NCBI GenBank assembly: GCA_001275005.1
Contig: JWZX01002781.1
Span: 1-43,662 of the forward strand
Origin: Chrysochromulina tobinii
Taxonomy: Eukaryota
Length of the DNA: 43,662 nt
Direction of reading: 5' to 3'
Shown piece after piece: positions 4,707-41,183 of this stretch. How positions within the stretch are numbered: position 1 is the stretch's first letter; each line of letters begins with the position of its first letter. A program made the translations under genes and the position numbers. The notes beneath the pieces were generated by a model that was not told the DNA's origin, searched no databases, and saw only the letters and a list, made by a program, of their open reading frames with translations.

Positions 4707-4774
<68 letters not shown>

Positions 4775-7552: not shown

Positions 7553-7817
7553 CGGCGGCCGCACAACGAGATGAGCTCCTCGTCTGTGAAAATGTTGCAC
7601 TTCCTATTCGGTCGTGTTCGTATGTTCGGTGTCGAGTTTATAATTCCTGAACCATTCACATTGGCTGTGAATCGGAGTAAACTGGCGGCTAACCTGGGCC
7701 AACGCAAAAGTTCGGGTACCAACGATCTTGACTTGACTTGATGCGAAATCGTGGGAAGATTCAGGAACTTGTCACGCAGGCTTCCGCTCTCCCCGTCGCC
7801 GAGACTCCATCTCCGCA

Positions 7818-7971
7818 ATGATGGCATGCTTGTCCGTGTACGCGCTCGCCCTGGCGATGTCGCGCTCCCTCCCACTGCGTGGCGGGACGTGCGTCGCCAC
7901 ACGGGGCAGTGTGCTTCATATGAATGCCGTCGCGGAGGCCACTCGTACCGATCTGCGCAACATTGCGATTG

Positions 7972-8002
<31 letters not shown>

Positions 8003-10168
8003 TGTGGATGCGATGCTCAAATCGGCGAACATCAAGGGAGACGATACGTTTTTGGACAGCAACGCTCAGGAGCGTGAACGTGGCATTACCATTCTTGCAA
8101 AGAATGCGGCGCTCACATGGAATGGCGTCAAGGTCAACATCGTCGACACTCCTGGCCACGCCGACTTTGGCGGCGAGGTGGAGCGTGTGCTCGGCATGGT
8201 GGACGCCGTGCTGCTGCTTGTGGATGCGGCGGAGGGCCCGAAACCGCAGACGCGCTTCGTGCTCAAAAAGGCGCTTGCCATGGGCCACAAGGTGCTTGTC
8301 GTCGTTAACAAGATCGACAAGCCTGCTGCGCGTCCTGACTACGTGCTCGACAAGACCTTCGACCTCTTCTGCGAGCTGGGCGCTACGGACGAGCAGACCG
8401 ACTTCCCTGTGGTGTACACGTCGGCGATCAACAAGGTCGCTGGCCACGAACCGAATGCGATCGGCACGGACATGTCGGCCCTCTTCGACAAGATCATGAC
8501 GCTCCCGAAACCCAAGGTGGCGAACGACAAGCCTCTCCAGCTCCAGATCTCGAACATCGGCTCGGACCCGTTCATCGGGCGGCTGGGCATCGGACGCATC
8601 ACCGCGGGCAAGCTGGTCAAGAACACGCCCATCGGCCTCTCTGCGGGCCCTGGCGCGAAGGTTCGCCAGGTCAAGGTCTCCGAGCTCTTCAACTTCCAGT
8701 CGGCTGGCCGCGTGCCGATTGAGAGCGCCTCCGCGGGCGAGATTGTCGTCTTCTCGGGCGTGCCCGACTTCAACATCGGTGACACGATCGTCGACCTGGC
8801 CAACCCGATGCCACTCGAGCCCATCGAGGTCGAGCAGCCCACGATGTCGATCACTATGGGTGTGAACAAGTCTCCATTCGCGGGTCGTTCGGGTGCCAAA
8901 TACCTGACGGGGCGCAACATCCGCGATCGGCTGATGAAGGAGCTCGAGACGAACGTGGCGATGCGCGTCGAGGACACCGACGACGGCGATACGGTGCTCG
9001 TCTCTGGGCGTGGGTTGCTCCATTTGACCGTGCTGATCGAGAACATGCGGCGGGAGAGCTTCGAGCTCATGGTTGGCCCTCCGATGGTGATTGAGAAGAC
9101 CGAGAATGGCGAGCGCCTCGAGCCGTTTGAGCTGGTGGGCAGATTGAAGGCAGATTGAAGGCAGATTGAAGGCAGATTGAAGCCAGATTGAAGCCAGATT
9201 GAAGCCAGATTGAAGCCGTTTGAGCCGTTTGGTGGGCAGATTGAAGGCAGATTGAAGGCAGATTGAATGCTGCCTCGAATCTCCTCTGAGGGCCGCGGAG
9301 GGCTGCTGATGGCCACTGATGGCCGCTGAGAGTGCTGCTGTGATTGCTTCGGCAGGTGGACATCGAGCTGCCCGCGGAATACGCCTCGGCCGCGATCTCC
9401 CTGCTCAACGAGCGCAAGGGCAACATGATCGACATGACCGCGGTGACCAAGGAGGGAGGGCAGGTGAAATACTGAACGAGTTGCCCTGAGTGCCCCCTAA
9501 TTGGCCTTAATTAAATGCAATTGCCATACCTGCCTCGACTGCAGGTGATCCAATTCGAGGTGCCTGCCCGTGGCATGTCGGGCGTCAAGTCCAAGCTGCT
9601 CTCTGCGACACGCGGTCTCGCCGTGATGAGCTCCACCTTCGCGGGCTACAAGCCGTACGCGGGTGACTTCGGGCAGCGCCAGAAGGGCAATCTGCTCTCG
9701 GCCGAGGCGGGCACCGCCACCGCGTATGCGATGCACAAGCTCGAGGACCGCGGCGCCTTCTTCTCCAGCCCCGGCGATGAGGTGTACGAGAACCAGATTG
9801 TCGGCGTCAACGCCAAGTCGGGCGATCTCAAGGCAAACATCTGCAGGTGATGAGCACTGATTGCATTCGGATTGCATTCAGATTGCATTCAGATTGCATT
9901 CTGAGTGCCTCTGATTGACTCTTGAGTGGCTCTGAGTGCCTCTGAGTGCCTCTGAGTGCCTCTGAGCGTCTCGCTCATCAGGGCGAAGGCGCTGACGAAC
10001 ATGCGCTCGGCCGGCGCGGATGAAAAGTCGACCACCTCGACCCCGCTGCAACTCACTCTTGAGGATGCAGTCGAGTACGTCATCGACGGCGAGTACGTCG
10101 AGGTGACGCCCGACGCGATCCGCATGGGCATGGCGCCCAAGATGAACAAGTTTGGCCAGAAGGTGTGA
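7818..10168 (+). CDS. typA: TypA/BipA translational GTPase, probably plastid-targeted; exons 7818-9134, 9356-9463, 9545-9846, 9982-10168 (about 637 aa)
   Basis: [81 protein letters not shown]; hydrophobic leader followed by a transit-like segment; junctions keep frame (1914 nt). Confidence 0.95.
9135..9355 (+). other. TypA intron 1 (221 nt, phase 0) with an 11-nt (G/C)CAGATTGAAG array
   Basis: CTG|GTGGGC ... TTCGGCAG|GTG joins LEPFEL to VDIELP. Confidence 0.85.
9464..9544 (+). other. TypA intron 2 (81 nt, phase 0)
   Basis: CAG|GTGAAA ... CTAAT ... CTGCAG|GTG. Confidence 0.85.
9847..9981 (+). other. TypA intron 3 (135 nt, phase 2) with GATTGCATTC(A/G) and CTGAGTGCCT arrays
   Basis: AG|GTGATG ... 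GCTCATCAG|G gives [12 protein letters not shown]. Confidence 0.85.
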
Positions 10169-18548: not shown

Positions 18549-21500
18549 ATGTTCAAGTGGGTAAGTCCGCGCTTTTCTGGCGTACGGCACACCACGCCGG
18601 CCAAAAAGTCGGCAGCAAAGGGGCCGCACTTTGGCAATGACGGCGAGCCTTACCTGGAGGGCAAGAAGCTACTCTTTGGCTACTCCCTTAGCGACGAGGT
18701 GGAGGCGGGCATGGTGCCGCTGGCGCTGATGCCGCCGCCGGGGACATTTTCGCCGGTGATGGCGCCCGAGGAGGTGGAGCCTGATGAAGGCGAGCTGCGG
18801 CGCCGCTCGGTCCAGGCTCGCATGGACGCTGCCGGCTACAGCGTGTTGCCTCGCGTGCCCTCGGACGGGGCGGCGGGGCTGATGGCCATAACCGCCGGCC
18901 TGGGCATCGCGCCCATCGCCGCCGCCGCCGCCGCCGCCGCGCAGCTCAGCTTCGCTGCCATCGGCATCTCCGCCGTGCTCGCCGGCGGCGGCACGGCGGC
19001 GGCCGTGTGCAGCCAGGCGCCTGAGCCGTACACGGCCTACAAGAACCGGTTGTCCACGACACCGGCAGCGGAGCTGCTCCCGTACGTGTGCTGCCTGGGC
19101 GGCGAGAGCATCCGCCGGAGGGCGCTGCGCCTGCGCGTGCTGACGCGCACCGCCCACACCCTCGAGCTGCTGATGGGCGTCGCCGCGCTCGGCCTTGCAA
19201 TCGATCTCTACATGGCAGTTCCGTTCGGCTTCTCGCGCTATTACCCATTCATCACGGTGGGTGACCCGTCGTACGGCGCGCAGGCGTCGCCCCTCGCCGC
19301 CAGCTATGAGCTGCTCATCGCGCTCGTGTGCCTCGGCTCCTTCCGCCGATGGCTCTCGACGGCGCCTTATGATCGGCTTCGTCAGATGTGGACGGGAGAG
19401 GCCTACGGCCGATTGGCGGACGCGCCGATGACGTACGAAGAGTTTCTCGCGAAGAACCAGCCCAAGCTGGGTCTCGAGGAGAAGCCCTGCCTCGCGCGCG
19501 TGGGCGAGGCCTTCGAGGAGGCCTTCGAAGAGCTCTCCGACATTTTGCTGCGCCGCGTCTTCGGCTCGAAAACCGTCGAGGAGCTCTCCGTCTATCTGGG
19601 GCGCCTCCACATGTGCTTCGGCCGCTGCCTCGGCGCCACCGGCCGATGGCAACCGATCCCCCCGGAGCTCGCGAACTCGCGCGACCCGCTCTGGAACACG
19701 CCGAGCTTCGTGAGTGACCTGTGGTTCGAATTCGGCGTCAACGTGCGCGCGCAGCCGCTCAAGTGCCTCGTCGCTCTGGCATGCTTCACGCTCGCGGCCG
19801 ACGCAGTGCTCGTGTACCGGCACGTGGTGCCCCCTCATTCGATTGAGATCTCTCACGAGCTCTTCGGTTCGGTGATCATCTCGGGCGGCTCGCCGCTCCA
19901 GGGCGTCGACATGAACCGCCTGTGGCTCTCTACGTACGGCCTCTTTTTCACCTCGTTCCTTGTGCTGCTCTCTACCCACAGAGCCTTTCGGAAGATCGTG
20001 CGCCCCCTCGAGTTCGAGGATTGCGAACGTGCCGAGTCCGAGAGGATAGAGGAGCGCACGGCGAAGCGCACCGCGCGCCAGCACCGCACGCACATGAGCT
20101 GGCTGCTGGCTGCGTCGTATGAGTCGCCCGATGAGTGCCGCCATCTAGTCGGGGAGATCGACGAGGCGATTAAGCAGGCCACGGCCTTCCGGTCGACGCT
20201 GCCATTCCCGAATGAGCCTCCGAAGCTCACGTACTACGACGAGGATCCCGAGTTTGGGTGGAAGCTGCTGCCGCCGCCCGCCGAGGACCTGGCTGCGTAC
20301 CTGCCGATCGAGTTCACGCGCCCGCTCTCGCCCCCCGGGCGCCAGCCTGACTTTGGCTCGCCGCCGCCCTCGCCGCCGCCCTCGCCTCCGTCGGTGATGA
20401 AGACCCATACGAAGACAAAGTTCTCGCGGCCCACAAGTCTGGTGCTGCGCCCCTCGTGGTGCCTCGCTTTCGACAAGGCGATCCAGGCCGCTGTCGAAGG
20501 CCTCAAGGCGATCCGCGTGCAGCTCGTCGCGCTCGAGCGCGTCGAGGCGATTGCCAATATGGAGGAGCCCAATGTGGATGAGTTGCAGATCGCCCTCCGT
20601 GTCGCGGCGTCCATCCTCGTGCCAGCGCACGCCCTCGAGCTCGCGACTAGGCCGCGTGGGGCGCCCGACAGCAATCTCGTGACGTTTGTCGCGGAACCGC
20701 CCGACATGGCACCGAGCGTCCTCGAAACCGTTAGCAGCTCGATGGGGAGTGCAATCGCCGGCGCGGGCAGCTGGGTGAGCGGTCTCGGCAGCGCGATTGG
20801 CGAGTCCATGGGGAAGGGCATAGGCGAGTACGTGGAGAGCCGGAGGCGGGAAGAGGCCGCTCGCGAGCGCATCCTCACGGAAACAGCCAAGGACCTCCTC
20901 GAGGTTAGTGTGGCGGGGCTGCGTCAGGCGCTCGCGGACGCCGAGGGTGTGCTCTCGGCGTCTGAGCTCCTCGGGCACCGTGAGAAGTGCGATCAGGCCG
21001 AGAAGGCGCAAGCAACGCTCAAGGCCGCCATGGAGCTTGTCGAGGGGCACGTACTGCTCATTGACCCGGCGGCGATCAGGGCAGCGGTGGCGGCCTGCAA
21101 GGACGCCGGCATCGACGAGAGGGCGCTCGCTTTTCTGGTCGCCTTCGCGGCGGACGCCGCGGAGGCGCAGACCAACGATCCAGTGATGAGGGCCCTCAAG
21201 GCATGCACCGCGCCGCCGGACTTGATGCAGATCGACGTGTCCAAGCTGCGCCGTGCCCTGGGCGAGGCCAAGGCCGCGGGCATCCCCGACGCTCTCATCG
21301 CGCGCTATGAGGCCACGCTGCTCGAGGCTGAACAGCTCCAGGTCGCATCTAGCGGCCCGGATACGAACGCGGCCGCGACGAAGGTGCAAGCCGCCATGCG
21401 GGGCAAGTCGGTACGGTCCGCGCGCGAGAAGAAGGCACCTGCGGCGCTACCTGCGGCACCAGCTGCGGCGGCGGCGCCGAGGAGCAAGCCTGCCGTTACT

Positions 21501-21689
21501 GGCCAGCGCTTTGCCATCGGCTGCGATGTGTACGTGAAACGGAGCAACGGAGAGGAGAGCATCGCCTTTGTGATGGAGTACGATGCGGCGAATAAGGCGT
21601 ACATGGTGGAGCTTGAGGCGGCTGGCTCTGGCCAGATCAAGCAGTGCCGAGAAGATATAATGCGAGAGGGGCCATCTGCCGCTGCCTAA
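18549..21689 (+). CDS. Multi-pass membrane protein with helical repeats, an IQ motif and a C-terminal small beta-barrel domain
   Basis: Several hydrophobic segments in the N-terminal half; IQ-like AATKVQAAMRGKSVR; terminal IGCDVYVKRSNG...YMVEL segment. Confidence 0.75.
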   Translation: MFKWVSPRFSGVRHTTPAKKSAAKGPHFGNDGEPYLEGKKLLFGYSLSDEVEAGMVPLALMPPPGTFSPVMAPEEVEPDEGELRRRSVQARMDAAGYSVLPRVPSDGAAGLMAITAGLGIAPIAAAAAAAAQLSFAAIGISAVLAGGGTAAAVCSQAPEPYTAYKNRLSTTPAAELLPYVCCLGGESIRRRALRLRVLTRTAHTLELLMGVAALGLAIDLYMAVPFGFSRYYPFITVGDPSYGAQASPLAASYELLIALVCLGSFRRWLSTAPYDRLRQMWTGEAYGRLADAPMTYEEFLAKNQPKLGLEEKPCLARVGEAFEEAFEELSDILLRRVFGSKTVEELSVYLGRLHMCFGRCLGATGRWQPIPPELANSRDPLWNTPSFVSDLWFEFGVNVRAQPLKCLVALACFTLAADAVLVYRHVVPPHSIEISHELFGSVIISGGSPLQGVDMNRLWLSTYGLFFTSFLVLLSTHRAFRKIVRPLEFEDCERAESERIEERTAKRTARQHRTHMSWLLAASYESPDECRHLVGEIDEAIKQATAFRSTLPFPNEPPKLTYYDEDPEFGWKLLPPPAEDLAAYLPIEFTRPLSPPGRQPDFGSPPPSPPPSPPSVMKTHTKTKFSRPTSLVLRPSWCLAFDKAIQAAVEGLKAIRVQLVALERVEAIANMEEPNVDELQIALRVAASILVPAHALELATRPRGAPDSNLVTFVAEPPDMAPSVLETVSSSMGSAIAGAGSWVSGLGSAIGESMGKGIGEYVESRRREEAARERILTETAKDLLEVSVAGLRQALADAEGVLSASELLGHREKCDQAEKAQATLKAAMELVEGHVLLIDPAAIRAAVAACKDAGIDERALAFLVAFAADAAEAQTNDPVMRALKACTAPPDLMQIDVSKLRRALGEAKAAGIPDALIARYEATLLEAEQLQVASSGPDTNAAATKVQAAMRGKSVRSAREKKAPAALPAAPAAAAAPRSKPAVTGQRFAIGCDVYVKRSNGEESIAFVMEYDAANKAYMVELEAAGSGQIKQCREDIMREGPSAAA

Positions 21690-22887: not shown

Positions 22888-24045
22888 TTACGCCGCGCCC
22901 GCGGTAGGCACGGCGATCGGCTCGGCGGTGATCATGTCTTTCTTCTCCTCCACGATGATTTCCTGAGCACCTTCACGACCAACTCGGCCACCGCCGCCAC
23001 CGCCGCCTCTGCCGCCTCTGCCGCCTCTGCCGCCACTTCTGCCGCTGCCTTCTCAGCCGCCACCTTCTCGGGCGCCGCCTTCGCCTCGGCCGCCGCAGCC
23101 TCAGCTGCCTTCCCCTCGGATTCCCTTGGCCGCCGCCGCCTCGGCCGCTGCCTTCTCAGCCGCCGCCATCTCGGCTGCTGCCGCCTTGGCCGCCGCTGCC
23201 TCGGCCGCCGCCGCCTCGGCCGCCGCCTTCACCGCCGCCGCCGCCTCGATCGCCGCCGCCTTCTGCGTCTTGTACACTCGTTCAGCGTCGAGGTTAGCAG
23301 CGAGGTTAGCAGCAAGCTGGCGGTCGGCCGCCGCCTTGGCCGCCGCCACAGCTGCCGCAGTTTCCTCCGCAGACGGATCGCGGTCGAAGAACCGGCCGAA
23401 AAACTCCCTGATGCCAGCGAGCAGCCCGTTCTCCTCTATGATCGCCGCCAGCTTCGGCGCTGTCGCGCCGCCCTCCTTCGCCTTCTGCATGCATGTGCAG
23501 AACTCATCAAAGCCGATCTTGCCGGAGCCGTCGGCATCAACCTCCTTTACCATCGCGTCGAGCTCCTCCGCGCTCATGATTCGGCCGAACGCACTCATGA
23601 TCTCACCCAGTTTGCTCACGGAGACAGCGCCACTGCCGTCCTTGTCGAAGACGTTTTTGTACGAAGCGAGCACCTCCTCGGAAATCGCGAGCGCGGGTGG
23701 CTCTGGCGCCACCACCTTGGCCGCGGGCTCCACCACCTCGGCCGCCACCACTTCGGGTGCCACCACCTCGGCCGCCACCACTTCGGGTGCCACCACTTCA
23801 GGTGCCACCACCTCGGCCGCGGGCTCCACCACCGCAGCAACAGGCTCCGCCACCATTACCGCGGTCGACGGCTTTGCCACCGGCTTTTCCTCTTCGGTCG
23901 CCACTACCTCAGCCGGGGGCACTACTTCCTCGGTGGACAGTGGCGCCGATTTCAGCACTGGGACCTCCTCAGCGGCAATCGGCTTGAGCTCCTCCGGCTT
24001 CGCGGGGTCTGCGATGACGATGGGGGTAGAAGAGGCGCAGCCCAT
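22888..24045 (-). CDS. N-acylated EF-hand protein with EVVA(P/A) repeats and an Ala/Glu/Lys tail; apparent frameshifts at about 23124 and 22968 (uncorrected frame stops at 23101)
   Basis: MGCASS N-terminus; EF-hand loops DKDGSGAVSVSK (lacks Glu12) and DADGSGKIGFDE; AEK repeats continue past the stop in a shifted frame. Confidence 0.75.
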
Positions 24046-24531
24046 GACTCTCTGTTTCGGGGTTCGCGGGTGTTCTGCGAGCGAGGAATCACACGGGTTG
24101 CGGCACCGGCACCGCGTACTATGACCAGCTCTTAAAAGGCGGCCACATACATGTACTAGTAGATTCACGTCGGAAGGATGCGCAGAATCTATACAAAACG
24201 AGCACATGCATGCAAATCACGGCCGCGACGTCGTAGTGACCATCGCCAGCCGCGACGTAGTTGTGACCAAATTCTCCCAAATTTCAAGTCCGTGTTCAAG
24301 TTCTCCCGTTGTCTGTGGAGCGGCGGCGTTCGTGATGCATGCTGTCAGACACCTCACCTCTCATTCACAAGTGGCAAGCGAAGCGGCATTGCCCGAGCGT
24401 CAAACAGCGTGCTGTGGGGAAAGATTGGTATTACTCGTCAGTGATGCATGCAAGGTTTCGACGACCGTCTTCAAACGCCAAATGGGAAGCCAATACCTTC
24501 TCCCTCGCCACGCGTGTCATAGGTGACCCTG

Positions 24532-26156
24532 ATGCCGTCCCTTGCCACGCGTGTCCTAGGTGAAATGTTGTCGCCTATGCGGAGCCTGAGCTTCCGCCGG
24601 CGAGGCGACAACATCCCGCAGCGCTCAGCGTGCTCGCCAGCGTGTGGCAGCACGCAGAACTGCACCGCTACTGCAGCGTCGCGTTCACCCGCGACACCAG
24701 CCGCCGCCAGCAGCAGCGTTGAGCGCTGGTCGAGCCCAGAGTCGGTCTCGACGCGGCCGCGACGCTTCGATGCTGCAAACAAAGCCCCCGTGCAGGAGCG
24801 CAGCACGCGCGTGTACCAAGAGCGACGGCTGGTGCGCACGGATGACTTAAAGGCCGCCGACTTGAGTCTTTGGCTCCAGCACTGCCGACGTGAGAATGGT
24901 CTGCATAAAGAGCACCTCGAGGCCATCTCGAGACGTATGTATCGAGATGGGCTAGCTCGCAAAGGCGACACCCTGAACGCTGCCGACATGGGTAGTTGGT
25001 TCGAGCACATCCAACGAGAGAACCGTCTGCATAAGGAGCATCTCGAAGCGATCTCGAGACGCATGCATCGAGATGGCCTCATGACCCGCTCCGAGCTGGA
25101 GCGTTGGCTCGAGGGCCCCGAAGAGAATCTGGCGGTGCTCAGCCCCGCGGCTCGCAGTCTGCTCAAGCAACGGCAAGCAGCTACCTCGCCGCACGAGCGG
25201 AGATCACGGGCAGATTCCCCGCCCGAGATGAGAAGAGAGGAGACCACTGAGGAGACCACAGGCGCTGTATTGGGCACTTCCTCGTCCGAGATGAGAAGAG
25301 AGGAGACCGCAGGCGCAGCATCGCCAGGATCATCCTCATCCGCACCACAGCGGCTGCTGCCAGCTGAGTCGCGGCCGTGGCACAATCGTGCCCGCGAGGG
25401 GCTGCGAGATTGTAGAGATCGGACGCACTTGCTGTCGCCACCGATACCAATGCCGCAGCTGCAACTCGGCCAATCGCCCTTGGCATTACCTCCGCCGGCG
25501 CGGCTGCCGCGTCCCCGTGCCGACATCCACTCTCCCGTCACTCCCGCTCCCTTCCACAGCCCCGCTCCTTTCGACCACGACACGGACCAGCACACCAGAG
25601 AGGAGGCCGAGCAAGAGAGATCCTTCTTGCGCGCGCGGCCGCTCGAGGGCGGCGCACTCGTTGCGGCGCGCGTGCGCCTCGGCATCGTCCTCAGACGTCC
25701 ACCGCCCTCGGGCCTCGGCCATGCATTCAAACAGGCGCTCGAACGCGCCGTGGCCGAGGAGCTGAGCGCTCGCGTGCTGCATGCACAGGCTTGTGCAGAC
25801 CAGGACGATGGCACAGATGCGGAGCAGGAGGCTGATAGCCGCGGCACGACAGCCCGCAGCAGCTCAAGCAGCAGCTCCAGCAGCAGCGCCGTACGTGGCG
25901 CGCGCAACCCTCCAAACGTGATCGTGCGCATGAGTGCAAGCGAAGCGCCTGTGCGAGTGCCGACCTTGCACGTGCCCAAGTTGGCCCCCTCGCCCCCCGT
26001 GGCCCCATCGTCGCCGTCCTCTCCGCCGTCCTCTCCGCCGTCCTCTCCGCCGTCCTCTCCGCCGCCAACAGACGAGGAGGCGGAAAGCGCTCACGAGGCC
26101 TCGAGCGGTGTGGCAGCCCAGCAGTACAACAGCGCATGCGGCAGCGGCAGCGGCAG

Positions 26157-26202
<46 letters not shown>

Positions 26203-29200
26203 AGCGGCGCCGACGCACCCGCCACGGCCATCGCCACGTGGCTCGACGTGTGCATCGAAATCGTCGTGGACGCGTCATGCTGGGCGTGGGGATCGGTGCG
26301 ACATCTGGAGGACGAGATGATCGAGCTCGCATCTCCCGCGAGGACGGGAGATTGGTGGCACGCGGCGCTTCACCGGTGCGCCAGTCAAGAGTGCGAGCTG
26401 CACGTTCTGAAGCTCGAGGCACTCCGAAGATTTCGATCCGCGGAAGACGTCGCTGCGGCGCTGCAGGGGATGCAGTCGCGCAGCACGCTGCCGCCGCTCA
26501 CGCTGCCCCTGGCGCTGCCGTCCCCCTCGCCTTCCTCGGTTCCATGGCTGTCGGAGCTACGGACCGCCGTCGATCGTGCAGAGCAGGCCGTGAATGGGGC
26601 CGTGAACGCTCTGGACGGTTGGTTGAGCATCAAGAATGAGGAGGAGGATGCCACGATGAGACTGCTAGAGGAAGGCGACGGCAGTGGTAACCTCTCGCCG
26701 CCCAGAACGCTCATTCGTGTTACTGCCATCGCCCCTGCTGCTGCCGCCCCTGCTGCTGCCGCCCCTGCTGCTTCCGCCCCTGCTGCCGCCCCTGCTGCAG
26801 CCGCCGCCTCGTCGTCCAGCTCCGCAGCCATACACACCAGGGCCACTCTTACGCGCAACTCGGCCGGCCGTTTCGGCGTCTCCTTTCACTCTCCCGGCGA
26901 CGGCACCATTCGGCTCGAACACATCTCAGACGCGCACGACGTGGACGATGAGCGAAAGCTGCTGTGCGTGGGCGACATCGTGCTCTCGATTAACGGGATC
27001 CCGCTCGAGACACCTCGCGAGTCCAAGACAGAGAGCGAGGAGGCGTTTCTCCTCCTGATCGCCCATTCAGGCCAGCACGTGGTGCTACACGTGTGTCGCC
27101 CGAGTGCGACGGTCCCGCGGGAGCTCTCACGGGCCTCCACCGCCATTCCCCTCAAGCTTTGGCGTGGTGCGGCGGATGGTACAGATGATGACGTTGTGGC
27201 TGAAGCCGCCTCAGCTTCCTCTTCCTCAGCCCCTTCGACCGCCGCTGCAACGCTCGAGCCACGAGCGTCGTCGTGGGCGCGCGACTCGCTCACCGTGCGC
27301 GTGCTCGTGGGGGAGCTCTCTACGCGTGTTGAGAGGACTCAGACGTATCACACGCGTCTTCTGGAGCAGCTGGCTCAGTTGTCGTTGATGCTGCAGCTCG
27401 AGCGGCGGGAACGCGAGCTGCTCGAGCTGCTCGAGCGGCGTGAATCCATGGCGGAGCATCGGCACGAGCAGGCGCAGCCGCACACGGCGAGGGACACCCT
27501 GGCGGCGTGGTGCAACGCATGTAGCGACAGCTGGCGCGATCGGCAGCACCTGTGGTTCGCGCGGGCATATGGGAGGGTTCTGCTCGAGACGACGCTCTGG
27601 CGGACGATGTTGGAGGTGAGGTGGGCCATGTTGAAGCTGCAACTGACGCACGCGAGCCTCGAGTGCAATGCAGCCGCCTCAGCTGCCTATGCAGCCACCT
27701 TTGGCCGTGCCGTCGAGGCCATGGGAACCGGCGTCACCTCGAGTGCGAGCTCGATCGGGCGCTGTATCGAGCATATCGCCCACTCGGCCGCCAACGGCTG
27801 CCACATGTATCTCGCCAATGAGCTCGAGCGGCTGGAGCAGCTCGAGACGACGCGGCCGGAGCAGCTCACAGCGGACTCGAGCGCTGGAGCCAGCACAGTT
27901 TGGCGTCAACGTGCGCGCTTCGACCTCCGGGCGGCTGCGACTCGGCGCAAGCTCGATCGGATGCGGTGGTGGGTGCGCTGGCTGCTGCTGCTGCTGCTAC
28001 GAAGTGTGCAGCTGCTGCTCCTTTGCGTTCGTTGCTTGCTCGCCCTACTCTCGCCCCGCGCCTTGATGATTGAGATGCTCATCATCATGGGCTTCGTCGC
28101 CTCGTCGCCTACTACACTGGGGGTCCTGGGCGCAGGGCAGCAGGGCGTCCGAGCAGACGGGCAGGGTTTCCAGAGTGTCGGCCAAAACGTCGGCCACGGC
28201 ATTCAGCAAAGCGTCCAAACTGTCGGCCAGGGCCTGCACACGGTCAGCGGCGCAGTGGGACAGGGGTTTGGGGCGCTCGGTGCACTTGTGAGCAATGCGG
28301 CGGCCGTCTACGTCTTGCAAATTAGCCCGCCTCCGACGCCTTCCCCATTACCATCTTCTTCACCCCTCTCGCCCCGGCTGACCCTGCCGCCGCCGCAGGC
28401 GCCACCTCCGCCACCTTACCCGTCACCGACACATCTGTCTCATTTGAAGCCCTCACCACCCATGCACCCAGCACTTCTGGCAGTTGCCTGGCATACGGTG
28501 GACAGTCTGGGCCTACATAAGGGTCTTACGACCTCATCACCGCCGCCCCTTCCGTTGCCGCCCTCGAAGCCTCCCCTTCAATCTTCGCCACCACCTGCTC
28601 GGTCTTCGCGGCCACCATCCCTAATGCCGCTGCCGCTGCCGCTGCCGCCACGACCGCCGCATTCGCCCTCGCCGCCGCCGCCGTCCCCTTCTGCTGAATC
28701 ATCTCCCCCTCCTTCCTCACCGCCACCGCACCCGCCATCACCCTCGCCGCCGCCACCCTCGCCGCCGCCGCCACCCTCGCCGCCTCCCAGGCCGCCGCCG
28801 CCCTCGCCCTCACCCTCGCCGCCCTATCGGCGTCATACTCCAGTCTTCGAGATTGAAGGGCCCATCAAGCTCGATGGCCACAGTTGCCTTTATCAGGAGA
28901 AGGGCACGCATGCGGCGTTACCTCTCGGACGCACGCCGTATACCATCGAGGCCTGGATACGACCCGCCGCCTCGGGCAATCCGTACGGAGGCATTGTGGG
29001 CTGGGGCGAGTACGGCATCCTGCATGGCGCCAACGCTCTCCGGATGGACGGATACCATTCGGTGGCTTCTTATTACTGGGGCGACGACCTGCACGTGTAC
29101 CCCCACAGTGACGCATTGATCAACCTCATCGACGGCGAATGGCACCACGTCGCCACCACCTTCGACGGTGCGTGGCGGCAGCTCTTTATAGACTTCAAGC

Positions 29201-32200
29201 TTGTTGGCACCAAGGCGTCCGCCGGCCCTACGGAACTTATCTCCAAGGAGAATTTCTGCATCGGGCGCACCTCCACTTCCGAATTCTTCCACGGGGCCAT
29301 CCGCGGCGTGCGCATCTACGACGAGCTCATCGTGCTCATGGCGAACGAATTCTCGCCCTCGCCGCCGCCGCCGCCTCTTCCTCCGTCGTGGCACCGGTTC
29401 TTTGGCACCCATCCGCGAGCGCCACCTCCGCCACCCCACCCATCGCCGCCTCCGCCACCTTCGCCACCTCTACCATCCCCCCCTCCACCGTCACCTCCGC
29501 CGCCGACCCTTCCGCCGCCGTCACCACCACCACCATCGCCTCCACCTCCATCGCCCCCGTTGCCCCTGCCTCCGCATGCGCCACCTCCGCCACCTTACCC
29601 GTCGCCACCACATCCTTCCCCTTTGCCGCCCTCGCCGCCCATGCACCCAGCACTCCTGGCAGTTGCCTGGCATACGGTGGACGCTGGTCTGGGCCTTGCT
29701 TCACTTGCGGCCCTCATCAAGCTGGTGACGGCAGTTGCGTCGGGTCTGATCGCCGCGTGCACGCTCTTGCTCGCGTTCTATGTCTTACTCGGGGCCTTGT
29801 ATGAAAGTGCCTTGTGGCTGTGCGAGCAAATACAATCGTGGCTGCCACAGCCCTCGGACAACGAGTCGCACGAGCTGCTGGTCGAGGACAAGGAGATGGA
29901 CGGCAACAGACTGGCCGACGTGTCCCTGCTGGCCATGGAGCTCAACGCTCATGACGACAGCGTCGAGGTAGAGTCGCCAAAGCGGGGCTTCCTGCCACGG
30001 GCTGAGCTCGAGAGTCCGTCACGGAGATGGGGACTGACAGAGGAACCACCGCTCCGCTCGCCGCTCCCGGCGACCCTCTCTGCTGACGTGCCCTTCGGGC
30101 TGCTGAAGCCAGTTGCGCACCGCCCTTCATACGTGTCGTATGCAGCCACAGGGGAGATCGTGGCGCCGACACTGGCACAGCTGTCTCGATTACCGCCACC
30201 ACCGCCAGCAACGCCGGAGCCGGTCGTGATCGATCCATGGCTAACCGCGACAGACGAGGCCACTGGCGACACATACTACTACAGGGAGTACAGTGGGGAG
30301 TCGCAGTGGGAACCGCCGTGGCGCTTGCCACTAGGGCTCGTCGTGCTCGCATTTGGCGCAACTGAGGAAGGCGAGCTGAGCGTGGCTGTGGGCATGCAGG
30401 TGACGGTACTTGCCGCGGAGGACGATTGGCTCTATGTGGAAGATCAAGGGCGGCGCGAGGGCATGGTCCCGGCTGCATGCGTGCGCCTGCTGCCAGATGG
30501 TGCTGCCGAGCCATCGCCGACGATTGAGCGCACTCGTCTGGCACTGCCCAATTTTGCTGGGTACACCGCTGACGAAACGAGGCGTGAGGCGCCGCCCTTC
30601 GCACAGCTCCGCCTCCTGCGCGAGTCCTTGGACGCTGCCTTAAGCCCCTCGGGGTTGGACGACACAACAGCAGGGCTCGCTCCGGAGCCTTCGGACGGAG
30701 CTGACTTCGAAACGGGCGGACGGGGGCGCAGCGCACAGAAGCCGCCCACGGTGTACATCACGGAGCCGGAGATGGAGCCGGTGCTGATGCAGACGCCTCA
30801 GCCGGAGCCCACCCCGGAGCAGCACGAGCCGACGCCGGAGCTAAAGCCGGAACCGTCTGCAACGGCTGCTTCCCCGGCCACCCATCCGTCTCAGGATATG
30901 TCTCAGGAGGAGGCTCCGATTCCGTCAGCACCTTCATCAGCCCCGGCTTCCCAGTATATGTCTCAGGAGGCTTCGATTCCGTCAGCACCTTCATCAGCCC
31001 CGGCACCTGCATCAGCCCCGGCTGTCGCCGTCGAGCCGATAACGATCGTGCGCACGAGGCCCTTGGTGCCTCCTCTCGTGATCCCTGCCGTACAGGCAGC
31101 TAAGGCAAAGGCTGCGCAGGAGGATGCAGCCGCAGCGGCGAGCGCGCTGGGGGAGGCGGAGCTGGCCGCTTCGGACGCTGCCGAGGTGGCGGCGGCTGAA
31201 GCGCAGGCGGTGGCGTTGGCGGACGGCGAGGGTAGCATGGCTCATTGGGCGGCCGTTACGATGGCCAACACGGCCGGTGCCGTGCATGCGAGCCTTTTGG
31301 GATGGTTCCATTCCATCCAATCGATGGCGACGCCGCCACCGCTACCGCCAGCTGGATGGGAACGTCTGCCAGACGAGGAGGGGGGCGTCGTGTTGGGCGT
31401 CGAGCATGCTCGGGCTGCTGGGTCTGTCGGGTCTGCTGGGTCTGCTGGGTCTGCTGGGTCTGCTGGGTCTGCTGGGGCAGATCGGCCGTCTGACAATCCC
31501 TACGCCGTGCTCTATTGGTGTGAGGGCAGGCCGTTACCGCGTCCCAGCACCCACCTTCTTGCCCGCTGCCGCGGCGTCGCTCACACTCGCGCCCAGGGGG
31601 CTGAGGCAGCCAATGTACACGCGCCCACGTCGGGCGGAGTTGCGAGGAGCCCACCGAAGATGGTTCCGAAGGTGAAGACGATCGCCATCTCGCCTCGCAG
31701 CGCCGGCAGCGGCGGTGGCGAGTGCTTCAACGCAGCGCGTGCTAGGCTGCAAGCTCCGCGCCGAGGCAGCTCCGCGACCCTGATCAACGCGACGCCGAGA
31801 GCAGCCACGGCACGTGAGCACATGTTCGAATTCAAGCCGCCGCCTCCGGTGCCGATGGTGCAGTCGGCACGCCCATCGTTGAACCCGGCCACCGAGCGCA
31901 CGCTGCAACGCCGGGACTCACTCCGACGCCTGTCCGCCTTGCAGCCGGTGAGCCGTCTCGGCGGCCATTGGAAGGCTCGTCCCCGCGACGTGCCCTCATC
32001 CGCCCTCTCTACCCCACGCGTTGCCCCTCCCCCCGGCTCGACCCCTCGGGACGACGCTCGGTACGACGCTCGGTCCGGCTCTACCTCGCACCGAGCCAGC
32101 CTCTCGCCTGCTCCCAGCCAAAGCCTCTCGCCACCCACGGCACCCTCCGAGGAGATGGACGTGGGAGCAGCGAGCCCTGCTCAGGTTGGGTTGGACGCCA

Positions 32201-32991
32201 GAGGTCAGACGAGTAGCCATCGCGCGGGATGCGTGGGTGCTAGAGATGAGACGTCGAGCCTCGGCAAGGGGATCGAGTTGGGCAGAGCCGAACCTGGCAG
32301 GCGAGAGGAGCCAAGCGGCCTGGACTCCCCGCGCGCTGATTGGTCGATACGCACCCCACCGACCGAACGCTCTCTCCTCTCCCCTCCCGACCGAACTGGT
32401 CCTCCCCTCACGCAAACGGGCATGGAGCCATCGCCCAGACTCGAGCTCCTCAGCGAGGAGCCATCCCAAGAGTGTGGAACTGACAAACCTTCGCCGATGG
32501 AGCCATCGCCCAGATTCGAGCTCCTCATCGAGGAGCCATCCCAAGAGTGTGGAACTGACAAACCTTCGCCGATGGAGCCATCGCCCAGATTCGAGCTCCT
32601 CATCGAGGAGCCATCCCAAGAGTGTGGAACTGACGAACCTTCGCCGACCCTATCATCGACCCATTCGCCGAACCTATCGCCAAATCTATCGCCGACCCTG
32701 TCACGGGCGAAACCATTCGCTTCATTGCGGCCCAAGTCTCCCTTCACACCTCCACGGCGTGAACGGCGTGAGGTAGTGCCACCATTCCAAGCACCATTCA
32801 TGGAGGTCCATCCGCTGGCATTGCCGAATCACGCTCGGGACGACGCGCCCGATGACGTGGAGAATGCACGAGGCGCGTGGCGGCAGAGGAGAATGCACGA
32901 GGCGAGAGCGCAATTTGCTGCGAAGCAGAAGGCGCGAGCAACAGCAGCAGGCCAAGGCTCTAGGCGCGACGAGGCGTTTCTGAACGCATGA
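24532..32991 (+). CDS. Giant intronless multidomain membrane protein: PDZ, TM, Pro-rich, LamG/concanavalin-like, Pro-rich, TM, WW, SH3
   Basis: About 2820 uninterrupted codons; PDZ about 26839-27102 (GRFGVSF...VGDIVLSINGIPL); LamG about 28843-29340 (YTIEAWIRP...DGEWHHVATTFDG...FFHGAIRGVRIYD); WW about 30229-30318; SH3 about 30334-30492. Confidence 0.85.
32422..32646 (+). repeat. In-frame 75-bp tandem repeat x3 (MEPSPRxELLxEEPSQECGTDxPSP)
   Basis: Near-identical DNA units. Confidence 0.9.
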
Positions 32992-37834: not shown

Positions 37835-39223
37835 TCAATTCAGTATGAGTCTGACGTCCGCGAGCTCCTTGAGAATCGTAGGAGCCAAGAGGGTCCCGCT
37901 CACCAGGATGCACACTACCAGCATGTACCAGACCGCGGCCCAGCCGCCCCAGATCTGCAGCGGGCCGATCGCCATCAGCCCAAACGCGGAGATGAGCGAG
38001 CCCGTACCATTGATGATGCCGACGACCGTGCCGAGCGAGCGCGTGCTACCACCGATCGACGGGTGCTCAGAGAGGTCCGCGGCAACGGCGGAGGTGATCA
38101 TGTTGTTGGGCCCGCCTACGAGAACGCCGAGCAGAGTCAGGAGGGCGACGAGTAGCCACGTGGCCATCGCATCCGAGTACACGGCGAAGGAGCCCAGCAG
38201 CGGCAAGAGCAGCACAAAGGCGGCGCCTATGACGGAGGCGCGGCGTCCGCCGAAGAGATCCGAGAGCCAGCCAACAAAGACTCCTCCAAACATCAATCCA
38301 ACGGAGTACAGCGACGAAATGACGTTGGCCGTCTGGGTGTCGAAACGAGATGTCAATAAGAAGGGCAGCCAAAAGAACATGGCGTAATTGACGTACTTGA
38401 GAAACCCGTAGACGAGTGCGTAGCGTGCGACACCGGGGATGGCCAGCGCCTGCATGAAGCCCACGGTGCTGCCCTCGCCGCCGTCAGCACCGCCGTCAGC
38501 GCCCTTCTCAGCGCCCTTCTCGGCGCCGCTGCTCGCTGTTTCGTCATCATCCAGCTTGAGGCCAATCTGGGCGGGCGAGCCCGCGACCATCAGGTAGTTG
38601 AGCACAGCCCACAGTGCGCTCAAAAGCATGGGGATGAGTAGCGCCACTTGCCACGAGAAGCCAGCGCTGACGATCGCGGCAGTCGAGAGGGCCGCCACAA
38701 TGTCGCCTATATTCCCATTCATGGTCCAGAAGCCGAACAGCAAGCCTCGGCCTTTCTTCGAGAACCACACGCCCATGAGCGCCATGTTGACGGGCAGCCC
38801 ACACGACTGGAAGAGGCCGTGAATCAGTTGGATGGAGACAAAGAGGAATGATCCGAGGCTATAGGACGAGTGGATGATGTCGATGTTCACCAAGTACAGC
38901 AGCGTTCCCAAGCAAAGTGTGGAGCCGACCAAGCTGATGCCGAGGACGACGTTCTGCGGGAAGATATCTGCAATGCGGCCCGAGATGAAGGTGCCGATAG
39001 CGTATGCGAACATGAAGGCGGTATCCATCTGCGAGAGCACGACCTTGTCTACACCAGCTAGGACGAGTTCAGTCTTGACATTGGTGTAGACCTTACGTGC
39101 AAAGTGCATGATCAAATAGTTGGCGAACGTGATGAAGAAGATGAAGGCCTGCCACTTAACCAGCCTAGAGACGGCACCTGGCCCTGGCAGATCAGGCAGC
39201 TGGCCCATGTATTGCAGAAGCAT
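37835..39223 (-). CDS. MFS sugar-phosphate / glycerol-3-phosphate transporter, SLC37/GlpT-like
   Basis: About 12 TM segments; HFARKVYTNVK, WFSKKGRGLLFGFW, FFWLP, ITSAVAADL, GIINGTGS. Confidence 0.88.
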   Translation of the reverse strand: MLLQYMGQLPDLPGPGAVSRLVKWQAFIFFITFANYLIMHFARKVYTNVKTELVLAGVDKVVLSQMDTAFMFAYAIGTFISGRIADIFPQNVVLGISLVGSTLCLGTLLYLVNIDIIHSSYSLGSFLFVSIQLIHGLFQSCGLPVNMALMGVWFSKKGRGLLFGFWTMNGNIGDIVAALSTAAIVSAGFSWQVALLIPMLLSALWAVLNYLMVAGSPAQIGLKLDDDETASSGAEKGAEKGADGGADGGEGSTVGFMQALAIPGVARYALVYGFLKYVNYAMFFWLPFLLTSRFDTQTANVISSLYSVGLMFGGVFVGWLSDLFGGRRASVIGAAFVLLLPLLGSFAVYSDAMATWLLVALLTLLGVLVGGPNNMITSAVAADLSEHPSIGGSTRSLGTVVGIINGTGSLISAFGLMAIGPLQIWGGWAAVWYMLVVCILVSGTLLAPTILKELADVRLILN

Positions 39224-39716
39224 GGTGAACGTAAGCTTGCGCTCGGCTTCGCGAGCTCGTGGGCCGCGTGCCGCGCCGCAGCTTGCGAGTTTTTTCGGAT
39301 CGCCACGGAAGCTTTTCGCCCAAGAGAACGCCCACAAAAATGGAGTCGATCCTCTCCCCAAATCTGGTTCGATCCCGCTCCGACCAAATTGTCTCCGCAG
39401 CTCCCGCCTTCTGGGCCAGCGTTTATCTTGTCAGTGGCGTAACGAAGAGCGGCGTTTCAAGAGCGGCGCACAAACTACATTTCCTGAGACCGGACGATGA
39501 ATCATGATTGTGCTGGAGGCACGGACGGAACACGGAAGCATGGATGGAAGTGCACAAGCTAGAGCTTGCTTGACGGAAGAGAGAAGACGCACGCGTGCCA
39601 GCGAGAAAGGCGGCGGAGCAGTACAACGTAATAAACAAGTGTGCGGCGCAGTCACGAGTCGAGAATGCCGATGACATGCTCTCGGTGCTTGCTGGTGCGC
39701 AGGATCGGTTTCAGGC

Positions 39717-41183
39717 TCAGTCAACGGATACCCATCGGCCCGAGGGGCTCAGCGATCCCCTCGTTTCTGCATCCGCTCGAGGACCGTTGTCGAGGAGCCG
39801 CTCGCCGTTCACGGCTTCGACCTGGAGGAGAGGCGGCCGAACGCGCCGCCGACAGCTCACGCAGCTGCTGGTCAAGATCTGTAGCACGATCGTCAAGATG
39901 ACCAGGTACCCGCAGATGACGCACGCTCGCTGGAAGCCGATCAACTCTACCAGGCCGCCGCCCGCAAGCGGCCCCGTGGCTTCACCTGCAGTGAACGCCA
40001 ACATCGAGAGCGCCGCGATAGAGTCGGAGCTCTGATCCACAGAGAGGCCGCCCAGCTCCGCCGTGTGCACCATGATCGCGTTCACTGGGGTGAAGGCGAG
40101 CGCGCCGCCAATGCCCATCATGCAGAGAGAGCCGAGGGCGAGGCCGATGGCGCCTGCGCGAGTACCTTGCGCCAAGAAGGGCACCGGCGAGAGCGGGTAG
40201 ATTTTTCCATGAGTATTGTTCCCTCCGATCTCGGACCATGGCTCCGGCGCCATCGTGATGAAACAGGCGGAGAGGATCGAAAGCCCGATGCTCAGAGCAG
40301 TCAGCGTGCCGAGACGCCTTGCCACCGGCCCAGCGCATGCAGAGCAGAGCGCGTAGGTGAAGAGCGAGGATGAGTACATGAGGCCTACCTGCAACTCGTC
40401 GAGCGCGTAGGGCGGGTTCGCGAGGAATGGCTCGATGGTCGGATCCAGGAAACCGACTGTGAACATGAGGATGTAGCAGACGAAGAGGCTCGAGAGGATG
40501 ACCGGCATTCGCAGCAGCCGTCCCATGGCGCCGCCGCTGCCCTCTTCCACAACCTCCACGCTGAGTGGGATGATTGTCATGTAGAGTGCAAGCAGCCCGA
40601 GCGTGCTCCCCGAGCAGAAAAAGGGCGCCTCGTAACCGATAGCCTCGTCGAGGCCGCCGCCGATTAACGGGCCAATCATGATGCCCACACCGCGCGCGGC
40701 CTCGGACCACCCGATGGCGTCGCCGACAAGTTCGGAAGGCACGCTGCGCATCAACAGTCCGACGGCAGCCACCTCCGAGAGCCCCGCAGCCAGACCCTGC
40801 ACAGCGCGAAGCGAAGCGCACGCGACCACAAAGGCGGTCGTCGTGGTCGCCAGGTCGGTGAAGGCGAATGAAAATGCTGTGGCCGCTTGCAGAAAGCACG
40901 CGGCCCTCAGCACGCCAGCTCCGCCAAAGCGCTGGCACAAGAAAGGTGCGACCGGCGTCACCAACAGCGCCACAGCCTGATGGAGGCCAAAGAGCATGCC
41001 GGTGACTGTCGGAGTGCAGCCGTGACGCTCGGCCGCCTCCGGGAAGAATGGAACGAGCATCGAAAAGTTGAGGTCGCTGATCGCGCACACGGCGCAGGAG
41101 ATCACGATCGGCACCACTTTCACTTTCTGCTCCGCCGAATGTGCGTCCCGTATGAGGGGGGTGGACACACCGACAGCCGGCAT
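39717..41183 (-). CDS. MFS transporter, SLC18B1-like
   Basis: About 12 TM segments; FSMLVPFFPEAA, LRAVQGLAAG, GIMIGPLIGGGL...GYEAPFF, GFLDPTIEPFL, GPLAGGGLV. Confidence 0.85.
   Translation of the reverse strand: MPAVGVSTPLIRDAHSAEQKVKVVPIVISCAVCAISDLNFSMLVPFFPEAAERHGCTPTVTGMLFGLHQAVALLVTPVAPFLCQRFGGAGVLRAACFLQAATAFSFAFTDLATTTTAFVVACASLRAVQGLAAGLSEVAAVGLLMRSVPSELVGDAIGWSEAARGVGIMIGPLIGGGLDEAIGYEAPFFCSGSTLGLLALYMTIIPLSVEVVEEGSGGAMGRLLRMPVILSSLFVCYILMFTVGFLDPTIEPFLANPPYALDELQVGLMYSSSLFTYALCSACAGPVARRLGTLTALSIGLSILSACFITMAPEPWSEIGGNNTHGKIYPLSPVPFLAQGTRAGAIGLALGSLCMMGIGGALAFTPVNAIMVHTAELGGLSVDQSSDSIAALSMLAFTAGEATGPLAGGGLVELIGFQRACVICGYLVILTIVLQILTSSCVSCRRRVRPPLLQVEAVNGERLLDNGPRADAETRGSLSPSGRWVSVD

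What the first reader, a model, noticed from the sequence alone, without database searches (positions are those of the whole stretch)
24532..32991. Giant receptor-like scaffold combining PDZ, WW and SH3 with a LamG domain between two proline stalks
Seen: one intronless ORF with the order PDZ, hydrophobic segments (about 27967-28320), SPPP-rich stalk, LamG/lectin-like domain, second stalk, TM (about 29683-29820), WW, SH3 and a disordered tail. Inference: both termini are cytoplasmic and an extracellular loop holds a lectin-like domain out on extensin-like rods. That would be a non-enzymatic adhesion or prey-sensing receptor with built-in adaptor domains. I do not recognise this architecture from any described family.
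Basis: partly seen in the sequence, partly recalled or inferred. Interest (0 to 1): 0.75.

Follow-up and report, generated by a model that had tools for sequence, protein, structure and literature searches.

The report
Patchwork surface receptor of freshwater alga
A freshwater alga carries one unbroken 2,819-codon reading frame, parts of which are near-copies of pieces of unrelated genes, and its product likely holds a lectin-like domain outside the cell on two proline rods while likely gathering signalling partners inside.

Summary
The ORF is real: 2,819 codons, open, with PDZ, membrane block, proline stalk, LamG, stalk, TM, WW, SH3 in the stated order. The host is a Chrysochromulina-like haptophyte. 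Wild alleles and a sister lineage keep residues 1489-2819 in frame; RNA contigs lie colinear on 69% of the ORF, but none of those listed bridges stalk 1. A single crossing after stalk 2 is conserved, so LamG likely faces away from WW/SH3; the first membrane block could still be a hairpin.

- A homolog (P0008) shares LamG-stalk-TM, an atypical SH3 and a 46-residue tail motif without a Pfam match (32/46 identical), but swaps its other modules.
- The PDZ cassette is a mosaic of near-copies found in a cyclic-nucleotide-type ion channel and a calcium scaffold; other segments also have second copies.
- An 11-mer amphipathic helix precedes stalk 1.

Best reading: a lineage-specific, non-catalytic adhesion or sensing receptor built by recent module swapping. 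Ligand and role are untested. The domain order was not found in my searches, but every part is of a known kind.

The parts
24532..32991 (+). Single ORF, 2819 aa (P0001); no hydrophobic signal peptide at the N-terminus
   Evidence: L001 has no difference inside the ORF, possibly not an independent source
24844..25110 (+). Two 44-aa N-terminal repeats (aa 105-148, 150-193); no Pfam family above cut-off
   Evidence: second DNA copies at about 25119-25237 in run X4
26809..27198 (+). PDZ cassette (PDZ aa 769-857 plus flanks), mosaic of near-copies in an ion-channel tail and a PDZ-EF-PDZ-PH scaffold
27256..27471 (+). Long predicted helix, likely coiled coil (aa 909-980)
   Evidence: pLDDT 73-91 over about aa 927-976; coiled coil is inference
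27910..28050 (+). Basic stretch followed by strong TM helix aa 1151-1173 (likely signal anchor, N-side in)
28057..28119 (+). Marginal hydrophobic helix aa 1176-1196; second TM or re-entrant
   Evidence: dG +0.63, recalled parameters
28162..28293 (+). Four 11-mer repeats forming an amphipathic helix (aa 1211-1254)
   Evidence: moment peak at 99 degrees, 0 of 5000 shuffles reach it; two further DNA copies of 28151-28240 in X4
28324..28827 (+). Stalk 1, Ser-Pro(3-5) rich, 168 aa, about 52 nm if polyproline II
28389..28503 (+). Copy 1 of a 115-nt direct repeat (88%), holding a PPPY motif and a truncated TM-entry segment
28843..29331 (+). LamG-like jellyroll (PF13385), two Cys (1452, 1576)
29350..29643 (+). 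Stalk 2, 98 aa, about 30 nm if polyproline II; ends in copy 2 of the 115-nt repeat (29568-29682)
29722..29790 (+). Strong TM helix aa 1731-1753 inside hydrophobic block 1709-1763
29962..30126 (+). Segment aa 1811-1865 shared (64-76%) with an otherwise unaligned protein cluster (P0103)
   Evidence: second DNA copy at 30056-30084 in X4 and X17
30187..30318 (+). Polyproline run (1886-1892) followed by WW domain (1901-1929)
   Evidence: second DNA copy at 30249-30286
30334..30489 (+). Atypical SH3 domain (aa 1935-1986), 49% identical to the C-terminal SH3 of P0008
31654..31974 (+). Conserved tail block aa 2375-2481; core 2435-2480 is 32/46 identical to P0008; no Pfam match
32422..32646 (+). Three 25-aa tandem repeats; copy number varies between alleles and lineages

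Best explanation
One 2,819-codon ORF encodes what is likely a two-pass, non-catalytic surface receptor of a Chrysochromulina-like alga, whose LamG-like domain is likely held outside on two proline rods while PDZ on one side and WW, SH3 and a conserved tail motif on the other likely recruit cytosolic partners. Steps: (1) shown: domain order, open frame, conservation of aa 1489-2819 in wild alleles and a sister lineage; (2) inferred: the basic-flanked helix 1151-1173 acts as signal anchor, helix 1731-1753 brings the chain back, and the 11-mer helix lies on the outer leaflet; (3) inferred: the Ser-Pro stalks are hydroxylated, glycosylated polyproline II rods that lift the jellyroll some 30 nm; (4) inferred: the jellyroll binds a surface glycan or protein (prey, partner cell or own coat), and binding acts by clustering or pulling, since no catalytic domain was found; (5) shown: the PDZ cassette and other segments have near-copies in unrelated genes; inferred: the gene grew from a LamG-stalk-TM-motif-SH3 core by recent copying and gene conversion of modules.
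For: Frame and selection: (wild alleles 98% identical over aligned columns, sister lineage 85.5%, all as unbroken proteins from aa 1489 or later). RNA colinearity. Topology: single helix dG -2.18 against +0.78/+0.70 for a split; sister lineage -1.92 against +1.9 to +2.2; P0008 -0.71 against +2.0/+2.25; P0008 tail has EF-hand and SH3 matches. Fold: ConA-like jellyroll, Z 13.3 to a sialidase lectin domain, 13.1 to CBM40, 11.2 to the ADGRG4 pentraxin domain. Family core: P0008 has LamG 57%, tail block 43%, SH3 49%. Mosaic PDZ: aa 804-822 is 18-19/19 to the scaffold but 12/19 to the channel; aa 823-857 is 31-32/35 to the channel but 16-17/35 to the scaffold; 154 nt are 95% identical to the scaffold gene. 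Second copies at full depth in DNA run X4. Ser-Pro(3-4) proteins are reported in coccolithophore proteomes (PMC10290126, passages) and ExAD-like GT47 genes in haptophytes (PMC5371791, passages).
Against: Block 1 splits into two helices at dG -0.28/-0.05, and helix 1245-1264 scores +2.66, so an even count there is feasible. No Lys/Arg and three acidic residues follow the last TM, against the positive-inside rule. No N-glycosylation sequon lies in the proposed outside loop. No listed RNA piece spans 28473-28853, 27998-28176 or 29555-30065. No database protein covers the N-terminal half beyond the PDZ (7993 candidates scored). Overall synonymous excess among the 40 SNPs shown is weak (17 of 40, P 0.07), and the tail SNPs look neutral (2 of 12 at aa 2024-2577). 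WW has Arg at a usually Asn position and SH3 lacks two groove aromatics (consensus recalled), so canonical binding is uncertain. The LamG model is middling (pLDDT 60). The dG parameters were recalled from memory.
Confidence: 0.6

Rival explanations
1. All domains are cytosolic: both hydrophobic blocks are hairpins, and with the 11-mer amphipathic helix they anchor a scaffold on ER or lipid bodies, where the stalks' PPPY and PxxP motifs would bind the protein's own WW and SH3.
For: Block 1 splits at about zero dG and block 2 at +0.7/+0.8. The 11-mer helix is strongly amphipathic. PPPY occurs at 1293 and 1686. No sequon in the loop. C. tobin stores lipid in two large lipid bodies (PMC4580454, passage). 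Hairpins and 11-mer repeats are lipid-droplet targeting devices (recalled; seen as listing only).
Against: The hairpin option for block 2 worsens to about +2 in the sister lineage and in P0008, while the single helix is kept. The closest non-algal LamG relative, P0010, has a signal-peptide-like start (read by eye) and TIG/adhesin domains. Ser-Pro(3-5) runs are typical of secreted glycoproteins (PMC10290126 and PMC11015965, passages).
Confidence: 0.17
2. Two genes (or a gene and an untranslated leader) lie in one frame, or an assembly joined two proline-stalk genes; the true receptor would start near stalk 1.
For: Six of the wild proteins that reach the LamG (P0007, P0011, P0012, P0196-P0198), and the fragment P0203, begin at aa 1489, and P0008 begins at the equivalent of 1459. 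No listed RNA or X4 DNA piece spans stalk 1. No N-half protein was found.
Against: Codon 1489 is simply the first ATG/GTG/TTG after codon 1365, as a bacterial gene caller would pick on contigs broken in the stalk. No stop lies in frame, and no GT-donor-like pattern lies in 27998-28176 or 28473-28853 (GC donors not scanned). The longest exact repeat touching stalk 1 within the window is 27 nt. The N-half carries an 88% copy of a C-half element. N-half SNPs at aa 577-1099 are 9 of 12 synonymous in this frame (window chosen after the fact).
Confidence: 0.13
3. A functional LamG-TM core has accreted copied fragments (PDZ, WW, repeats) that are largely passengers.
For: Accessory modules differ wholly between P0001 and P0008; several are recent copies; N-terminal and tail SNPs are mostly non-synonymous; WW and SH3 are atypical.
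Against: WW-SH3 is 39/40 and 36/40 identical in the sister lineage against 85.5% overall; the PDZ carboxylate loop is intact.
Confidence: 0.1

Closest known systems
Adhesion GPCR ADGRG4/GPR112 (PMC10687090, abstract and outline read)
   Same: A pentraxin/LamG-like jellyroll held out on a long low-complexity stalk; its domain is a fold match here (Z 11.2, rmsd 3.4, 149 aligned).
   Different: It has a Ser/Thr stalk, the domain at the N-terminal tip and a 7TM body; here the domain sits mid-loop between two proline rods, with two strong TMs and built-in adaptors.
Green-algal and plant hydroxyproline-rich glycoproteins: extensins, PERKs, Chlamydomonas MST3 (PMC11015965, passages; PERK from listing and recall)
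   Same: Ser-Pro(3-5) polyproline II rods tied to a membrane anchor; MST3 also carries putative lectin domains.
   Different: No kinase or PKD channel domain was detected here; glycosylation is untested; the host is a haptophyte.
Animal LamG receptors (neurexin, Caspr, Crumbs) working with PDZ/WW/SH3 scaffolds (MAGI, MAGUK) (recalled)
   Same: Extracellular LamG plus cytosolic PDZ, WW and SH3 functions.
   Different: There receptor and scaffold are separate proteins; here they are one chain. The LamG is of the PF13385 type, whose nearest non-algal hits are 39-41% identical bacterial-type proteins. No guanylate-kinase domain was detected.
P0008/P0015, unnamed homologs from metagenome assemblies
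   Same: LamG 57%, proline stalk, 11-mer-like amphipathic stretch, one TM, tail motif 32/46, atypical SH3 49%.
   Different: EF-hand pair instead of WW, SH3 at the C-terminus; N-terminus probably cut off, so PDZ and block 1 cannot be compared; paralog or ortholog unknown.
SETD2 WW domain with preceding polyproline (PDB 2mdj; PMC12311445, passages)
   Same: A polyproline run at similar spacing before the WW (E 3e-5).
   Different: Autoinhibition is reported for SETD2 only; here it is an analogy and the match may owe much to prolines.

Membership tests
ConA-like lectin/glucanase (LamG-like jellyroll, PF13385) | Profile match above cut-off and beta-sandwich fold | tested here: met
   59.8 bits against cut-off 27.6; all-beta model and Z up to 13.3
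ConA-like lectin/glucanase (LamG-like jellyroll, PF13385) | Carbohydrate binding | not testable with these tools
   Top fold rows mix CBM40, sialidase lectin domains, pentraxins, agrin and PAPP-A at 10-19% identity
Extensin/HRGP | Ser-Pro(3-5) repeats | tested here: met
   Eight SP3-5 runs in stalk 1 and six in stalk 2
Extensin/HRGP | Proline hydroxylation and O-glycosylation | not testable with these tools
   Only indirect: ExAD-like GT47 in haptophytes (PMC5371791, passages)
Extensin/HRGP | Cleavable signal peptide, secreted | tested here: not met
   No hydrophobic window before aa 565 reaches KD 1.4
PERK / receptor-like kinases | Cytosolic kinase domain | tested here: not met
   No kinase profile in Pfam scans of the whole protein or its pieces
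Adhesion GPCRs | GAIN domain and seven TM helices | tested here: not met
   Two strong and two marginal helices; no such Pfam hit
MAGI/MAGUK scaffolds | PDZ with WW or SH3 plus guanylate-kinase-like domain, soluble (recalled) | tested here: not met
   No GuK profile; membrane helices present
PDZ domain | R/K-x3-G-hydrophobic-G-hydrophobic loop (recalled) and profile match | tested here: met
   Loop present at aa 775-783; 24.2 bits against 23.2 on the cut-out piece
WW domain | Two Trp, central aromatics, conserved Asn and Pro (recalled) | tested here: inconclusive
   Trp, Tyr run and Pro present, up to 70% identity to other WWs, but Arg replaces Asn; 23.8 bits is below cut-off 26.9
SH3 domain, canonical PxxP binder | ALYDY and P-x-N-Y groove aromatics (recalled) | tested here: inconclusive
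   Profile passes (27.2 against 22.9) but the first and last groove tyrosines are Leu and Cys; P0008 also has Cys at the last position
Lipid-droplet hairpin / perilipin-type proteins | 11-mer amphipathic repeats and hairpin anchors without lumenal loop (recalled) | tested here: inconclusive
   11-mer helix met; hairpin feasible for block 1, disfavoured for block 2 in relatives

The most novel reading that the evidence does not exclude
Chrysochromulina keeps one PDZ cassette nearly identical, by copying and gene conversion, in a stalked lectin receptor, a cyclic-nucleotide-type ion channel and a calcium-binding scaffold. The three dock on the same partner and form a contact-to-calcium signalling unit for prey capture, assembled recently by module swapping between genes.
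Probability: 0.15. Interest if true: 0.78.

Novelty: new variant of a known kind. Interest (0 to 1): 0.48.

Why it matters
Haptophytes are abundant mixotrophs, and C. tobin is wall-less and takes prey with a haptonema (PMC4580454, passages). My six topic searches showed no receptor for that contact. This gene gives a concrete candidate family with a testable ligand domain and a conserved tail motif that has no Pfam match. It is also a clear case of domain shuffling in progress: a PDZ with recombination breakpoints inside the domain, shared among three otherwise unaligned genes. That limits how much a single exotic architecture in these genomes should be trusted as an ancient design.

Tried and rejected
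- No whole genome is held for this window, so copies were sought through fetched loci and run X4 only.
- Full-length relatives of 1550-4934 aa: 1 hit among 7959 scored candidates, a bacterial-type LamG repeat protein.
- The 50% representative search with aa 1704-2023 gave 238 hits, best 150 listed; they are mostly WW/SH3 matches, and none has its best stretch in the TM block.
- ESM Atlas: best scores 0.75 and 0.78, leads only.
- The model of aa 907-1265 (single sequence, pTM 0.24) had no Foldseek match at E 0.001; no evidence of a new fold.
- PDB sequence search of the LamG gave only neuronal pentraxin-2 at E 0.1. The viral scan gave one 27% LamG.
- A codon-usage test trained on six genes did not separate frames.
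- The first synonymous count for the 115-nt repeat used the wrong frame; one search is the right one (7 synonymous, 5 non-synonymous codons).
- The +1/-1 indel pair at 26959/26966 in RNA run X14 is not taken as a frameshift of this gene: it also shows as a second DNA copy in X4 and falls where the channel paralog differs.
- Joints listed inside the stalks come from short sides in repeats and were not counted. Gaps in RNA cover are not evidence of absence.
- The sigma-70 scan is irrelevant to a eukaryote.
- No complex prediction was run; no earlier scan finding matched. No supplements were read.
Full report
1. The observation. Window 24532-32991 (+) is one open frame of 2819 codons; the other five frames hold 39-64 stops each. 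It fills the space between a divergent 368-codon ORF and a dehydroquinase II gene. Pfam gives LamG (E 4.6e-16), SH3, WW and PDZ in the stated order; on cut-out pieces PDZ and SH3 pass their cut-offs and WW does not. Locus L001 differs from the window at 4 places in 21.5 kb, none in the ORF; it may come from the same culture.

2. Host. No genome is held. A scaffold gene that shares the PDZ (L002) is 99.4-100% identical, over the aligned stretches, to Chrysochromulina tobinii KOO33170.1 and to a C. parva model. Holders of the DNA are mixed-culture and freshwater runs. That the window belongs to the same organism is inferred from this, from 58-74% GC (63.4% reported for C. tobin, PMC4580454, passage) and from second copies in run X4.

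3. Is it one coding gene? All 23 tandem-repeat rows within the ORF have periods divisible by 3; 18 of 61 rows outside do not, and several of the 10-11-nt arrays sit beside donor-like sites. From five RNA runs, 40 contig pieces were listed; I dropped 4 (one outside the ORF, three partial paralog-like) and the other 36 are colinear over 5853 of 8460 nt (1244 and 7489 further pieces were not shown). No GT..AG joint is among the joints shown. DNA in these RNA libraries cannot be excluded, as flanking bins also had cover. Of 110 SNP rows, 40 were shown: 17 synonymous, 23 non-synonymous, 0 nonsense, against about 26-30% synonymous expected (P 0.07). At aa 577-1099, 9 of 12 are synonymous (P 0.002, window chosen afterwards); at aa 2024-2577 only 2 of 12. 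Wild alleles P0007 and P0012 are 98% identical over aligned columns from aa 1489 on; a sister lineage (P0044 and its cluster) is 85.5%. These proteins start at aa 1489 or later; 1489 is the first possible bacterial-type start codon after 1365. No listed RNA piece spans stalk 1, and no database protein of the N-half beyond the PDZ was found. The join is supported by the open frame, by the lack of a long exact repeat in stalk 1 within the window (27 nt) and by an 88% copy of a C-half element in the N-half.

4. Topology. With a Hessa-type score (parameters recalled; controls: 10 helices at dG up to 2.5 in an MFS transporter; best values +1.2 to +2.4 in five proteins taken as soluble), two helices are strong: 1151-1173 (-2.78) and 1731-1753 (-2.18). 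Two are marginal: 1176-1196 (+0.63) and 1709-1731 (+1.59). The first has 8 Lys/Arg in the 20 residues before aa 1147, which fits a signal anchor; no N-terminal signal peptide is seen. For block 2 the single helix is kept in the sister lineage (-1.92) while a two-helix split worsens to about +2; the same holds in P0008. That puts LamG opposite WW/SH3. Against: block 1 splits at -0.28/-0.05, no basic residue follows the last TM, and the loop has no sequon. Between block 1 and stalk 1 lie four 11-mer repeats with a hydrophobic moment peak at 99 degrees that 0 of 5000 shuffles reach; the single-sequence model shows a continuous helix there (low confidence).

5. The outside loop. The stalks would measure about 52 and 30 nm as polyproline II. 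The LamG model (five sequences, pLDDT 60) matches ConA-like jellyrolls: sialidase lectin domain Z 13.3, CBM40 13.1, ADGRG4 pentraxin-like domain 11.2 (Foldseek agrees). The ligand class cannot be read from this. Nearest non-algal sequences are 39-41% identical bacterial-type LamG domains.

6. A small family with swapped accessories. P0008/P0015 share LamG (57%), a proline stalk, an amphipathic stretch, one TM, a tail block (43% over 140; core 32/46) and an SH3 (49%) with the same unusual Cys in the groove, but carry EF-hands, show no WW match and place the SH3 last. The tail motif has no Pfam match, and aa 2419-2458 are 40/40 identical in the sister lineage.

7. Modules shared with unrelated genes. 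The PDZ is 95% identical over 154 nt to the second PDZ of a PDZ-EF-PDZ-PH scaffold, and 78% identical over 130 aa, flanks included, to the tail of an ion channel with a weak cyclic-nucleotide-binding match and a WW. The likeness switches within the domain: aa 773-803 match both (28-30/31); 804-822 match the scaffold (18-19/19 against 12/19); 823-889 match the channel (31-32/35 and 20-21/32 against 16-17/35 and 5/32). Part of the channel's difference in 804-822 is likely a short compensated frameshift. Run X4 shows second copies, at depth like the main contigs, around 25119-25237, 26940-27127, 28151-28240, 30056-30084 and 30249-30286, while long pieces elsewhere have no second form. Residues 1811-1865 match another protein cluster at 64-76%. 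Copying and gene conversion are inferred; direction and mechanism are not determined.

8. Mechanism (inferred). The protein is likely a two-pass receptor without catalytic domain. Ligand binding at the stalk-borne jellyroll would cluster or pull the chain, and PDZ, WW, SH3 and the tail motif would tie it to cytoskeleton, trafficking or channels. A polyproline run just before the WW resembles SETD2 constructs, where such a run modulates the WW (PMC12311445, passage); here it is an analogy. Prey sensing is one candidate role, as C. tobin is wall-less and phagocytotic (PMC4580454, passage). Confidence 0.6; cytosolic hairpin scaffold 0.17; two genes or mis-join 0.13; passengers on a functional core 0.10.

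9. Against what is known. It likely works like ADGRG4-type stalked pentraxin receptors (PMC10687090, abstract and outline) and algal hydroxyproline-rich membrane proteins (PMC11015965 and PMC10290126, passages), with the scaffold fused in. It is not a member of these families: no 7TM/GAIN, kinase, PKD or GuK domain was detected. Searches showed no paper on this architecture; the library lacks most subscription journals and no supplements were read. PDZ and SH3 are known promiscuous domains (PMC3499355, passages), so a unique order alone is not surprising.

10. Verdict. Real, likely transcribed, partly under selection, and lineage-restricted as far as these searches reach. New variant of a known kind; interest 0.48.

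Noticed in passing
L002:7445-12088 (also L003-L005, P0005, P0226): A 1547-codon open frame encoding PDZ, IQ-like motifs (by eye), EF-hand pair, PDZ and PH; the NCBI model Ctob_009485 covers only 377 aa of it and is labelled calmodulin in UniRef.
   Followed up: partly
P0003, P0004 (metagenome proteins): Ion channel with a weak cyclic-nucleotide-binding match whose long tail carries the shared PDZ cassette and a WW domain; two clusters, 91% identical.
   Followed up: partly
window 3972-9966 (several arrays): Tandem arrays of 10-11-nt units, several next to splice-donor-like sites; they look like a hallmark of this organism's introns.
   Followed up: partly
window 18549-21689 (+): 1046-aa ORF without Pfam hit: several hydrophobic segments, a short Ser-Pro run, a Gly/Ser 11-mer-like amphipathic stretch and an IQ-like motif (read by eye).
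   Followed up: no
window 23101-24207 (-): 368-aa ORF divergent from the giant gene, with an EF-hand-like pair, Glu/Val/Ala repeats and an internal MGC start that could be acylated (read by eye).
   Followed up: no
window 37835-41183 (-): Two tandem MFS transporter ORFs; nearby are dehydroquinase II (33369), a cap guanine-N2 methyltransferase (36448), a Rab-GAP TBC (17451), an EF-G-like GTPase (7818) and an F-box/MYND protein (2123).
   Followed up: no
P0198 against P0196/P0197, aa 1899-2000 of P0001: P0198 has the sister-lineage LamG and TM but the window-type WW-SH3 residues, which hints at recombination between the two lineages or a mixed assembly.
   Followed up: no
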